DNA of 64,000 bases from Paraspadella gotoi (lineage: Eukaryota; Animalia; Chaetognatha). Both the position numbers and the translations under genes were made by a program. The stretch lies in contig CM119269.1 of the NCBI GenBank assembly GCA_051294375.1, positions 12,006,896-12,070,895 on the forward strand, in the 5' to 3' direction. The notes under the pieces are model-generated. The model did no database searches and was not told the origin of the DNA. It was given only the letters and a program-made list of their open reading frames with translations. This document shows positions 6,801-9,800 of the stretch, one piece after another; position 1 is the stretch's first letter; every line of letters starts with the position of its first letter.

Positions 6801-9800
6801 TATTTTTAGTTATCAATAATCATACTGCGAAATACTAGTTGATTATCGCGGTTTTCCTTAATATTCTCATAATCGTATGTATTTAATATTTTTCATATCA
6901 GGCTGTTTGAAATTATTTTTGGAGCGTCGCCTTGGCCTTTTGTCTTTAATCGACGAAGCTTGCGTCGCCCCTGGCGGATCCAACGATAACCTCGTGCATA
7001 AAATGAACCAAGTTCACGGAGGAAAAAAGAATCGTTACTTTATCGCTCCTCATACTAAGGTTTGAATGTTGGATTTACCGGAGCTTAAGATTTAAATATT
7101 AAATTTATAAAGGGTCAAATTAGTTATTTTAATCAAGGAAAAATATATGTTGTGAAAACCGTATGACTTCTCTGCTAACACAACGGCGTGAAATATTGTA
7201 CAATGTTATGAAATTGGGACAACTATGGTGGACTAAAATCCAACTCAACAGCGTTCTGCATGCGGCACATTGGTGCCGGAGGCAAGTCATTCGCCTCCCA
7301 ACCCAAAGGTCCGGGGTTCTAGCCCGGTGGTCGTCTGGCAGTTAAGAGGACGGGGTGCTTAACCCGCCTGTAACATGGTGTTACAGCTTATCCGAAGCTC
7401 AGGGACTGCTTATATTGAACGGTTCTGTCATTAACACTTATCAATAATTACTATCTCTTCATTTGAGCCCGACTTCGAACACAACAGCAACAACAACACT
7501 TTCAGGCGACATCTCCTGGCAGCACTTCGCCCACAACACATCAGGCGACATGCCTCAACTTGGTGACGAACTTTCCACCAACAACAACAATTCACTGAAG
7601 AGACGCAACAGACTTCTCCCTAGGGAGGGGGGATTTATGGTGACTAAAATCCACCAACCGTTCATCAGCGGCCATTGGTGCCGGAGGCAATTCATTCGCC
7701 TCCCAACCCAAAGGTCCGGGGTTCTAGCCCGGTGGTGTCTGGCAGTTAAGAGGGACGGGGCGGTTAGGCGCCTGTAACATGGTGTTACAGCCTGATCCTA
7801 AGCTGATCCTAAGCTCAGGGACTGCTTATATTGAACGGTTCTGTCATTAACACTTATCAATAATTACTGTCTCTTCACGACCAATATAAAAATTATCCAT
7901 TCATTTAATAAATAAGCTATCTTGCCCTCTATTTAATGTAAGAAAGCTAGGACGTCTGCACAGAGAAAGACATCCTTCGGTCAGTTCCATTGTTTGTAAC
8001 CTTCCATTCAACAGAATCAATCAACCAATCAACCAATAAACCAATCAAAAGGCTTTCAAAATCACGTTAAGTACAAATACTTTAAAACAAATCTGTCCAG
8101 GAGATGTCCTTCAGCATAGTCCACTACGCGTCTCCCGTCAAGTATAGCGTCGACTCCTTCATCGAGAAGAACAGTGAGATGCTTCGTCCTGAGGTCGTTG
8201 CGGCATTGAAGGCGTCTGCTTCTGGATTCTTGCGTCAGATCATCGGCGCCGATCCCGCGGCGCTCTTTCGGTGGCTCTTGGTGCGAAACTTTTTTCGAGC
8301 CATTCAGGTAGAGTGGGAGTTATTATATACAAAGATAACAAAAAGTAATGATAACAAACAAGAATTTAAAAACTCCGCTCGCTCGCGGCTAAATCAATTG
8401 TGCAGAACGTGACCTTTCACTAAAGATTTTATAAACTTTTATTCTTGATATTACCGATTTATTTTTATTGAATATTTTTATCTACTTCTTAAAAACGAAA
8501 AATCAATTTTAAAAATATTTATAAGGACAGTAATGATTAAATTTTTTTTAATTAATAACAAAAACGATAAAAACACAAAAACAGTAACGGTATCAATAAC
8601 AGCGTAAAAAGACTAGAACACGGAAAACAAATATAACCTACTCGAACAATGTTGTTTCAGACTTTATTTAACTCTAGTGATAGAAGCTTAAAATGCGGTA
8701 TTCTTAATATACTTGACTGTGCCCATGTCGTATCAGCTTAATAGAAAAAAGATAATGATTTATATATGTAATATTTAACTTAACCCTAGACGCAATATTA
8801 CACTAAACCCATTACGATTACGATAACCAAAGTTATTTTTGCAAACTAAGTTAACTGCTACAATTTGTAAATGAGATTTAGGAACTAATTATAACTATAA
8901 ACTAAAAATCACTCTGCTACACATACGAATCCCCACTCCCTCAGGCGTTGAAATCAGGCGGTAAACGTTTTCGCCTGATTCACGCTCCCCCGCGGAGATC
9001 TTCCGACATTTCTCATGATCGTGATTCCAAAGATGCGATGAAGAAGAAACTCAGTAAGAAATCTGTCACCATCGATCTCTCAAACCAAAATGGTGAGGGT
9101 TTCTGTTGTTGTTGCTGTTGCTATTGCTGTTGTTGTTGCTGTTAATACGGATGACTTTTTTTTATCCTTTTGCTACGTTTAAATACAATTGTTACAATCA
9201 ATATAAAAATTATCCACTTATCCAAAGAATAAGATATCTTACTCCAAAATTTGTACAGACTGTTGGGTTGACGTCTTCAACCTCACAAAATAATAACATA
9301 GCAGCACCATGCAAGCTTTTATTCAAAACTCTCTCAGACTGCTTGGTTTTCTAATTATAGAAGTGATGCAATATTTTTGACTGCTTTTTATATCTCCTGT
9401 TAATTCGTCAGGCTGTCGTCATCATTTGGAAAAATCAAATTATTATACCAAATTTTACGCGCTTGAAATTTGTTCTCAAAACTACTAGTAACATCGATAT
9501 TGTGAGAGTCAGTAAGAAATTGTCACCATCGATCTCTCAAACCAAAATGGTGAGGGTTTCTGTTGTTGTTGCTGTTGCTATTGCTGTTGTTGTTGCTGTT
9601 AATACGGATGACTTTTTTTTATCCTTTTGCTACGTTTAAATACAATTGTTACAATCAATATAAAATTATCCACTTATCCAAAGAATAAGATATCTTACTC
9701 CAAAATTTGTACAGACTGTTGGTGTGACGTCTTCAACCTCACAAAATAATAACATAGCAGCACCATGCAAGCTTTTATTCAAAACTCTCTCAGACTGCTT

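What the first reader, a model, noticed from the sequence alone, without database searches (positions are those of the whole stretch)
7224..7877. Candidate 'twister retrozyme': a 654-bp non-coding LTR element with a twister ribozyme in each LTR
Seen: two ~238-bp direct repeats (TA...CA), a ~175-bp interior, a polypurine tract before the 3' repeat and a 4-bp TSD (CAAC/CGAC). Solo copies at 38580-38807 and 41697-42323 each have AAAT TSDs. In the PPT-defined sense the LTR consensus reads GCAGT taaGAGG G A CGG ggcgct TAA CCC GC [CTGTAAC..GTTACAG] [CCTGA TCCG AA GC TCAGG] g ACTGC. That places the twister core in P5-permuted order: U^AA site, catalytic G-A, T1 CCG/CGG, T2 GC/GC, P3, P4, P5. Established: plant retrozymes are small non-autonomous LTR elements with hammerheads that yield circular RNAs, and twisters are known from non-LTR retrotransposons such as those of Schistosoma. 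Inference: this is an animal LTR-type analogue using twister. Double cleavage at U7360^A and U7765^A would release a ~405-nt monomer that could circularise and be mobilised by a 4-bp-TSD (Gypsy-type) partner. I do not know of a described example.
Basis: partly seen in the sequence, partly recalled or inferred. Interest (0 to 1): 0.92.

Follow-up and report, generated by a model that had tools for sequence, protein, structure and literature searches.

The report
Miniature LTR retrotransposon with dimeric twister
A 654-base gene-less LTR jumping element in what is likely an animal genome carries, in each terminal repeat, a tRNA-like likely promoter and a twister-ribozyme-type fold that is predicted to cut only when two copies pair, which would make it an animal counterpart of plant retrozymes, although every copy in this stretch is damaged and cutting is untested.

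Summary
In detail: two LTRs (238/242 bp), a 174-bp non-coding interior, a polypurine tract, two solo LTRs, and a 4-bp TSD proven against empty sites. Two more repeat families in the window carry the same fold, with compensatory changes in both pseudoknots, and one hits Rfam Twister-P5 (E=0.001, below the gathering score).

P1 is a self-complementary hexamer, which points to a dimer-only ribozyme. P2 has 3 bp plus a bulge instead of the canonical four pairs. A tRNA-like box A/B segment precedes the ribozyme, as in Helenus TRIMs. All four family-1 twisters here are damaged, and the 3' LTR one has lost core bases, so this copy probably cannot release the 405-nt RNA.

Best reading (0.45): a Helenus-like TRIM whose two twisters pair, excise a unit-length RNA and circularise it, as plant retrozymes do. 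Main rival (0.3): the ribozyme is a passenger from a captured tRNA-SINE. No genome, reads or outside relatives were available, and no PBS was identified. Nine literature searches found no twister-bearing LTR element. Verdict: new variant of a known kind.

The parts
7220..7223 (+). left target-site duplication (CAAC)
   Evidence: empty-site comparison with family-3 copies
7224..7461 (+). 5' LTR (family 1), TA...CA
7263..7337 (+). tRNA-like segment: A-box-like 12-mer at 7271, GGTTC B-box at 7315, T-arm hairpin 7311-7327; likely internal Pol III promoter
   Evidence: conserved in family 2; not called by ARAGORN or Rfam tRNA; weak tRNA-like mascRNA match, E=3, on the 3' LTR copy
7338..7409 (+). 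type-P5 twister-like motif of the 5' LTR; predicted scissile bond U7360^A7361; L1, T1 and T2 intact, P2 and P4 damaged, P1 hexamer self-complementary
7462..7635 (+). non-coding interior, 174 bp; first ~18 nt at the PBS position, primer not identified
   Evidence: no Pfam match for ORFs over it
7622..7633 (+). polypurine tract, 12 nt
7636..7877 (+). 3' LTR; tRNA-like segment 7669-7741; twister-like motif 7742-7825 broken (U7765^AG, P2 and T1 lesions, 12-bp duplication)
7878..7881 (+). right target-site duplication (CGAC, one mismatch)
7882..7927 (-). part of the family-3 repeat into which the element inserted; its last bases lie at ~7203-7219
38580..38807 (-). solo LTR, AAAT duplication; twister-like motif with 5-nt P1 and damaged P2; ~62 bp beyond the 3' end of a family-3 copy
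41697..42323 (+). solo LTR, AAAT duplication, inserted in a family-3 copy within 1 bp of the site used by the full element; split by an insertion at 41876-42265
43995..44076 (-). family-2 twister-like motif, all pairings intact (T2 AC/GT; P3, P4 and P5 changed in compensated form); predicted scissile U at 44050; tRNA-like segment upstream at ~44120-44175
3483..3551 (+). family-3 twister-like motif, all core pairings intact (T1 CCA/TGG, perfect palindromic P1, no P3); predicted scissile U3510; Rfam Twister-P5 match 3496-3538
35532..35600 (-). family-3 twister-like motif, second copy
38924..38992 (-). family-3 twister-like motif, third copy; P1 changed at two positions and still palindromic, T2 damaged

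Best explanation
It is a small non-coding LTR retrotransposon (TRIM) whose LTR holds a tRNA-like segment and a type-P5 twister fold, and it likely moves as plant retrozymes do: RNA polymerase III would start in the 5' LTR, the two ribozyme copies are predicted to pair and cut, and the released ~405-nt RNA would be circularised and copied by an autonomous LTR element. Shown in the sequence: LTR pair, PPT, 4-bp TSD, solo LTRs with identical starts, the fold and its covariation, the self-complementary P1, and no run of four T in the element. Inferred: Pol III transcription from about 7263, read-through of both LTRs, strand exchange between the 5' and 3' ribozymes through a 6-bp P1 duplex, double cleavage at U^A, ligation by a host RtcB-type ligase (as shown for hammerhead retrozymes), and reverse transcription and integration by a Gypsy-type partner. 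A dimer requirement would leave solo LTRs and the finished circle, which each hold one ribozyme, uncut. This copy is probably dead.
For: LTR anatomy and a proven 4-bp TSD. Sister family 3 matches Rfam Twister-P5 at E=0.001. Over 7 copies of 3 families, 88.5% of cells pair and 8 of 23 pairs change on both sides, among them T1, T2 and P2; slid controls give 26-53% paired and at most 2 such pairs. Six of the 7 parsed copies have a fully self-complementary 6-nt P1, in five different sequences with four different central dinucleotides, and the central pair cannot form inside a hairpin; 5.3% of hexamers are self-complementary. The two-copy minimum-energy fold of the family-2 and family-3 motifs is the strand-swapped twister scaffold, while the one-copy fold is not. 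Families 1 and 2 share the order tRNA-like head then twister, although their flanks barely align, and both keep every stem. No T4 terminator lies in 7224-7877; 56 of 1000 shuffles lack one (the LTRs are not independent, so this is modest). Precedent: dimeric hammerheads with palindromic loops in axolotl retrozymes, and RtcB ligation (PMC7229834, passages); circle model for plant retrozymes (PMC4918200, passages).
Against: None of the four family-1 motifs is intact. For family-1 copies the minimum-energy folds, as monomer or dimer, are not the twister scaffold: a competing hairpin covers L1, and the constrained dimer is 14-24 kcal/mol above the unconstrained one, pseudoknots not counted. P2 is 3 bp with a bulge, whereas the review states four Watson-Crick pairs and that adding or removing one might disrupt the active site (PMC5408937, passage). 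Rfam does not recognise families 1 and 2. The ribozyme part is no more conserved among family-1 copies than its flanks: 6 substitutions in 71 columns between the LTRs, against 1 in 73 for the tRNA-like part. No tRNA-complementary PBS was identified. The predicted circle is only mildly structured (53% paired, z=-1.7, 3 of 40 shuffles as good). Family 2 looks SINE-like and family 3 has ragged 5' ends, so the fold may have been conserved outside LTR elements. One full-length copy only; no expression data.
Confidence: 0.45

Rival explanations
1. Ordinary Helenus-type TRIM with a passenger ribozyme. A tRNA-headed SINE that carried the twister (a relative of family 2) inserted into a TRIM LTR. The tRNA part was kept as promoter, and the element replicates by normal strand transfer with the ribozyme silent or blocked.
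For: Kojima proposes SINE insertion into an LTR as the origin of Helenus (PMC10886601, Discussion). Family 2 has the same head-plus-twister order and looks SINE-like, with a 7-bp flanking repeat and a short tandem tail (weak, such 7-mers occur by chance). Family-1 folds favour a hairpin that hides L1, and all four copies are damaged.
Against: Family 1 differs from family 2 by compensated changes in T2, P1, P3, P4 and a wholly replaced P5, so the fold was under selection on the path to family 1, though perhaps before capture. By eye, most Helenus LTRs on the supplement page read have a T-run right after the tRNA part (not counted), whereas this LTR has none and carries the twister there.
Confidence: 0.3
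2. The ribozyme is active but only forms the RNA's 3' end, replacing the Pol III terminator. The replicating RNA is linear, runs from the tRNA-like start in the 5' LTR to the cut in the 3' LTR, and keeps a ~98-nt terminal repeat for normal strand transfer.
For: No T4 in the element; the first downstream T4 is at 8290. A linear RNA with R needs no ligase and fits standard LTR replication.
Against: Both LTRs carry the same motif, and a strand-swapped dimer forms two active sites, so the 5' copy should be cut as well (inference).
Confidence: 0.12
3. Not an LTR element: a non-autonomous Penelope-like (Naiad-type) derivative whose direct repeats are pseudo-LTRs, moved by a GIY-YIG/RT enzyme.
For: MRC1 of Chlamydomonas was first mistaken for a non-autonomous LTR element in this way (PMC8557442, passage). 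Animal hammerhead retrozymes derive from PLE pseudo-LTRs (bioRxiv 10.64898/2026.07.22.740005, abstract and passages). Unchecked notes of this scan report palindrome-armed P5 twisters in Naiad tails. Termini are TA...CA, not TG...CA, and no PBS was identified.
Against: Three independent insertions start at the same base and end at the same position, each with a 4-bp duplication, and a purine tract abuts the 3' repeat. PLE repeats are 5'-truncated at variable points, and Naiads favour (TA)n targets. Family 3, with ragged 5' ends and no TSD found, fits this reading better than family 1.
Confidence: 0.08

Closest known systems
Plant LTR retrozymes (Cervera, Urbina, de la Pena 2016, PMC4918200; passages read)
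   Same: Non-coding; ribozyme inside each LTR; 4-bp TSD; PPT; solo LTRs; double cleavage would leave an RNA without terminal repeat that needs circularisation.
   Different: Type III hammerhead there, twister-P5-type fold here. Described from plants; animal retrozymes are reported to lack LTR, PBS and PPT (PMC7229834, PMC7761336). LTRs 300-400 bp against 238 bp. tRNA-Met PBS there, none identified here. tRNA-like head here. Circles shown there, untested here.
Helenus / TRIMp3 (Kojima 2024, PMC10886601; parts 1-4 and 6 of 6 of the text, supplement parts 1 and 7 of 11, four supplement searches)
   Same: TRIM under 1 kb; tRNA-like box A/B segment in each LTR; PPT; 4-bp TSD as in animal Helenus; solo LTRs.
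   Different: No twister mentioned in the text, and no LTR hit for twister loop motifs or family-1 termini in the consensus file (a line break could hide a match). Here the tRNA-like part lies in the 5' half of the LTR and is followed by the ribozyme fold rather than a T-run. Box A fits Kojima's TRGCY/YGG only partly. No tRNA-3'-end PBS.
Twister ribozyme, type P5 (Rfam RF02684; review PMC5408937, passages; Table 1 of PMC8501958)
   Same: Order of elements, N^AA, G-A, 3-bp T1, 2-bp T2, L4 and P4; optional P3 present in families 1 and 2.
   Different: P2 is one base short on its 5' strand (also the gap in the Rfam alignment). P1 is a 6-nt self-complementary linker, not a hairpin. Below the gathering score or not detected.
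Twister T-variants of Perere-3, Schistosoma (Liu et al. 2021, PMC8501958; abstract, sections 5, 17, 19, passages)
   Same: Twister inside a retroelement, with relaxed P1.
   Different: Non-LTR (RTE) element; one P1-type ribozyme at the 5' end; canonical 4-bp P2; cleavage shown.
Dimeric hammerheads of Penelope-like elements and amphibian retrozymes (PMC7229834 and PMC6765202, passages; Lunse et al. not held)
   Same: A short palindromic loop replaces a stem, so two tandem copies pair to cleave.
   Different: Hammerhead, not twister; pseudo-LTR or tandem context, not integrase-type LTRs.

Membership tests
Twister ribozyme (type P5) | N^AA cleavage triplet and G-A in L1 | tested here: met
   7 of 9 copies tried parse with both; the 3' LTR copy and the gap-flank duplicate of family 2 do not
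Twister ribozyme (type P5) | Pseudoknots T1 and T2 | tested here: met
   each paired in 6 of 7 parsed copies, with a compensatory change in each between families
Twister ribozyme (type P5) | P4 closing an 8-nt L4; termini in P5 | tested here: met
   Rfam model alignment
Twister ribozyme (type P5) | P2 of four Watson-Crick pairs | tested here: not met
   3 pairs plus a bulge in all three families (5 of 7 copies; the other 2 are further damaged); four pairs per PMC5408937
Twister ribozyme (type P5) | P1 stem (reported as dispensable) | tested here: inconclusive
   no normal hairpin possible; 6-bp duplex possible between two copies in 6 of 7
Twister ribozyme (type P5) | Rfam gathering score | tested here: not met
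   family 3: 25.6 bits against 37.6; families 1 and 2: no hit at E<=10
Twister ribozyme (type P5) | Self-cleavage at N^A | not testable with these tools
   needs in vitro transcription
LTR retrozyme | Non-coding, two LTRs, PPT, 4-bp TSD | tested here: met
LTR retrozyme | Hammerhead (type III) in each LTR | tested here: not met
   no Rfam hammerhead hit; the fold is twister-type
LTR retrozyme | tRNA-Met PBS shared with Ty3-gypsy | tested here: inconclusive
   interior starts TTTG, not TGG; shares 7 nt with the half-tRNA-iMet PBS of rust-fungal Helenus seen; one copy only
LTR retrozyme | Circular RNA in vivo | not testable with these tools
   no reads were examined
Helenus (TRIMp3) | TRIM of about 0.3-1.3 kb with PPT and 4-bp TSD (animal type) | tested here: met
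   654 bp
Helenus (TRIMp3) | Box B GGTTC in each LTR | tested here: met
   7315 and 7720, within a T-arm-like hairpin; 3 of 4 family-1 LTRs and family 2
Helenus (TRIMp3) | Box A (TRGCY...YGG) | tested here: inconclusive
   TGGTG...AGG in family 1 and TGGCG...AGG in family 2, 44 nt before box B; no tRNA call by ARAGORN or Rfam
Helenus (TRIMp3) | PBS complementary to a tRNA 3' end (animal type) | tested here: inconclusive
   no TGG start; no host tRNA set available; self-priming match no better than shuffles
Non-autonomous Penelope-like element | Pseudo-LTRs from variable 5' truncation, no fixed short TSD | tested here: not met
   3 of 3 insertions share ends and have 4-bp duplications

The most novel reading that the evidence does not exclude
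The first animal LTR retrozyme, and the first with a twister: a Pol III-driven TRIM whose obligate-dimer twister acts as a two-LTR sensor, cutting only full-length transcripts, sparing solo LTRs and the circular product, and inserting preferentially at the ends of the twister-bearing repeat from whose lineage the ribozyme may have come.
Probability: 0.35. Interest if true: 0.85.

Novelty: new variant of a known kind. Interest (0 to 1): 0.68.

Why it matters
Published accounts split retrozymes into plant LTR forms and animal non-LTR forms, both with hammerheads, and place twisters only at the 5' end of RTE-type LINEs. An animal LTR element with a twister would break that split and show that different ribozymes can drive the same circle-based route. 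It would join two TRIM kinds described separately, Helenus and retrozymes. A twister with a short bulged P2 and palindromic P1 that cuts as a dimer would be a new structural variant that Rfam misses. Two natural copies in this window keep all core pairings, so the test is one in vitro transcription.

Tried and rejected
No whole genome is held, so copy number and the autonomous partner could not be sought; no sequencing reads were examined, so expression and circles are open.

Rfam on family 1 and family 2: no twister at E<=10. Relaxed descriptor scans are at chance level when used alone.

Outside relatives: three scans of viral contigs gave 0, 9 and 27 loci and two of metagenome contigs gave 0 and 5. 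None of the 41 loci has P2, P4 and a self-complementary P1 together, so all are treated as chance. These collections hold little eukaryotic DNA.

A 5-bp TSD fits only the 38.6-kb solo LTR and was rejected for the family. Self-priming by the LTR: 149 and 162 of 300 shuffled PBS sequences pair as well. A near match to the PBS position at 40439 (E=0.36) lies outside any LTR and was dropped. No RT, integrase or GIY-YIG fragment was found among the 123 of 368 stop-to-stop frames sent to Pfam.

Host taxon: a homology search and the Atlas gave nothing. 'Animal' rests on myosin-head, IQ and C1 exons on one strand, a myosin-IX-like order by recall. The sigma-70 scan is irrelevant to a eukaryote.

Alignment A5 misplaces one family-1 copy at T1/P1 and family 3 at P4, so overstates P1 by one row and understates T1 and P4.
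Full report
Setting. The window is AT-rich eukaryotic DNA from a gapped draft assembly (7 N runs). Pfam finds myosin-head exons at 5765-13148, an IQ exon at 14635 and C1 exons at 43484-44675, all on the + strand (123 of 368 frames sent). 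From recall this order is myosin-IX-like, so the host is likely an animal; two attempts to place it gave nothing. The element lies in an intron between motor exons, in the gene's sense. No whole genome or reads were available, so everything below rests on 64 kb.

The element. BLAST and global alignment give LTRs at 7224-7461 and 7636-7877 with 11 substitutions and 22 gap columns, a 174-bp interior and TA...CA ends. A 12-nt purine tract ends two bases before the 3' LTR. Two solo LTRs begin at the same base and end at the same position, each flanked by AAAT. The TSD of the full element (CAAC/CGAC) could be proven, because the element sits inside another repeat (family 3): removing it and one 4-mer restores the sequence found uninterrupted at 3.5 kb and 35.5 kb. 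Fixed ends, a 4-bp duplication and a PPT are the marks of integrase-type LTR elements (established knowledge). The interior starts TTTG rather than TGG and I could not assign a primer; self-priming was no better than chance.

Upstream of the ribozyme each LTR has an A-box-like 12-mer (7271) and GGTTC in a T-arm-like hairpin 44 nt later. ARAGORN and the Rfam tRNA model do not call it; the only Rfam sign is a weak tRNA-like mascRNA match, E=3. The same segment, diverged, precedes the family-2 ribozyme. Kojima 2024 (PMC10886601) describes Helenus, TRIMs with tRNA-like box A/B segments in their LTRs and 4-bp TSDs in animals. His text does not mention twisters, and motif searches of his consensus file found no LTR with the twister loop or with family-1 ends. 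By eye, most Helenus LTRs on the page I read have a T-run just after the tRNA part. This element has no run of four T at all; the first lies at 8290, and 56 of 1000 shuffles lack one.

Is the twister real? Rfam does not see it in family 1, and a loose descriptor is at chance level (9 hits against 2-14 in 60 simulations). The scan did turn up two other repeat families with the same fold. A profile built from 7 copies finds 10 copies in the window at E<1e-4, 7 of them its own training set. Family 3 matches Rfam Twister-P5 at E=0.001, 25.6 bits against a gathering score of 37.6, with one base missing on the 5' strand of P2. Families 1 and 2 carry a P3 hairpin that this 58-position model lacks, which probably explains their miss (inference). 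Across families T1 changes CCG/CGG to CCA/TGG, T2 changes GC/GC to AC/GT, one P2 pair changes C-G to A-U, P3 and P4 change in compensated form, and P5 is replaced outright. On the 7-copy alignment 88.5% of cells pair and 8 of 23 pairs change on both sides; sliding the partners gives 26-53% and at most 2. Only three lineages stand behind these counts and two rows are partly misaligned. I put twister ancestry at about 0.95.

Two departures from the canonical ribozyme. First, P2 has three pairs and a bulged base on the 3' strand in all three families, the bulge being A, C or T/A. The review says P2 has four pairs and that changing this might disrupt the active site (PMC5408937), so activity cannot be assumed and I do not file it as a canonical member. 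Second, P1 is only six bases: GGCGCT, GGTGCT, GGCGTC, AGGCCT and AGATCT, each fully self-complementary, in 6 of 7 parsed copies; the seventh has lost a base and the unparsed 3' LTR copy is broken. The central pair cannot form within one strand, yet it is kept in four different forms. Folding two copies together gives the strand-swapped twister scaffold as the minimum-energy structure for families 2 and 3, but not for the family-1 copies, where a competing hairpin wins. Hairpin RNAs gain energy as dimers in general, so the shape matters more than the number. Palindromic loops with dimer-only cleavage are known for hammerheads of Penelope-like elements and axolotl retrozymes. I noted the palindrome before reading earlier findings (note). 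Unchecked notes of this scan later showed the same idea for twisters in Naiad tails of other genomes; that is a lead on origin, not support.

State of the copies. All four family-1 motifs are damaged. The 5' LTR has lesions in P2 and P4; the 3' LTR reads U^AG and has broken P1, P2 and T1 plus a duplication; the 38.6-kb solo LTR has a short P1 and P2; the 41.7-kb solo LTR has a T1 mismatch, a changed P3 and an insertion in P5. Many differences are single-base indels, and gap-flanking duplicates in this assembly differ by indels too, so part may be sequencing error. The ribozyme segment is not more conserved among copies than its flanks, as expected of neutral decay after insertion.

Mechanism. 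Most likely (0.45): Pol III starts near 7263, meets no terminator, and reads both LTRs; the two ribozymes swap strands through P1 and cut at both U^A bonds; the unit-length RNA has no terminal repeat and is ligated into a circle, as argued for plant retrozymes (PMC4918200) and shown with RtcB for animal hammerhead retrozymes (PMC7229834); a Gypsy-type element copies and integrates it with a 4-bp TSD, the pairing Kojima infers for animal Helenus. A dimer requirement would spare the circle and solo LTRs. Every step after the DNA anatomy is inferred. The main rival (0.3) is a Helenus-type TRIM that captured a tRNA-plus-twister SINE and carries the ribozyme as a passenger; family 2 may be such a SINE (weak). 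Lesser rivals are 3'-end formation only (0.12) and a Penelope-like derivative with pseudo-LTRs (0.08), the last opposed by fixed ends and uniform TSDs.

Insertion sites. Two of three family-1 insertions interrupt a family-3 copy within one base of the same site, about 11 bp from its end, with different TSDs, so they look independent; the third lies about 62 bp beyond another copy. With about 9 family-3 copies in 62.9 kb, the chance is 0.0004 for the second and 0.02 for the third. Three cases only, and noticed after the fact; the cause is unknown.

Relatives and print. Pattern scans of viral and metagenome contigs gave 41 loci, none with the full fold. Nine full-text searches found no twister-bearing LTR element, no twister-bearing tRNA SINE and no palindrome-driven dimeric twister. 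Reviews state that animal retrozymes lack LTR, PBS and PPT and that twisters occur in RTE elements. The library lacks most subscription papers and Repbase; Roth et al. 2014 was not read, Lunse et al. was not held, and the supplements of Liu et al. 2021 (2060 variants) and of the 2026 preprint were not seen and may hold such cases. What I saw: Kojima 2024, five of six text parts, two of eleven supplement parts and four supplement searches; Liu 2021, abstract, sections 5, 17, 19 and passages; the 2026 preprint, part 1 of 5 and passages; PMC5408937, PMC4918200, PMC7761336, PMC6765202, PMC5680766, PMC9695139, PMC7229834, PMC8557442 and bioRxiv 2022.07.19.500677, passages only.

Verdict. A real LTR-type element with a real, variant twister fold and a likely Pol III head: a combination I could not find in print, built from known parts. 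New variant of a known kind; interest 0.68, limited by dead copies and the lack of any functional data.

Noticed in passing
window 41876-42265: Insertion in the solo LTR with a 5-bp flanking repeat. On the - strand it reads as an LTR-like end (CA) followed by the complement of ~60 nt of tRNA-Lys(CTT), like an over-long PBS; on the + strand, a 5'-truncated tRNA-Lys SINE. The ARAGORN tRNA-Lys call at 41864-41936 is a chimera of this and the LTR.
   Followed up: partly
window ~43819-44206 (-), duplicate near 54830-55130: Family 2: tRNA-like head, intact twister-like motif, 7-bp flanking repeat and ~10-bp tandem tail; possibly a twister-bearing tRNA SINE in a C1-domain intron.
   Followed up: partly
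window 3445-3608, 3935-4868 (split by a gap), 9178-9356, 14862-14946, 19227-19348, 35477-35639, 38869-39051 and two interrupted copies: Family 3: ~170-bp repeat with fixed 3' end, ragged 5' end, no tRNA head and no TSD found; may be the tail of a Penelope-like element.
   Followed up: partly
window 7220-7223, 41693-41696, 38808-38870: All three family-1 insertions lie in or just beyond the 3' end of a family-3 copy, two at nearly the same base.
   Followed up: partly
window 9949-11360/11786-13201, 9051-9469/9509-9923, 43891-46456/54813-57410, 47651-54013/57402-63790, 23629-26411/30191-32989: Long duplicates at 92-99% identity, several beside N gaps and rich in indels; likely haplotype or long-read assembly artefacts, one duplicating a myosin exon.
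   Followed up: no
window 40481-41132: AT-rich tandem array of 55-72-bp units, most with a GTCGAC palindrome.
   Followed up: no
window 53165-54787 and 29236-29434: Inverted self-matches (1.6 kb around a gap; 200 bp), not examined.
   Followed up: no
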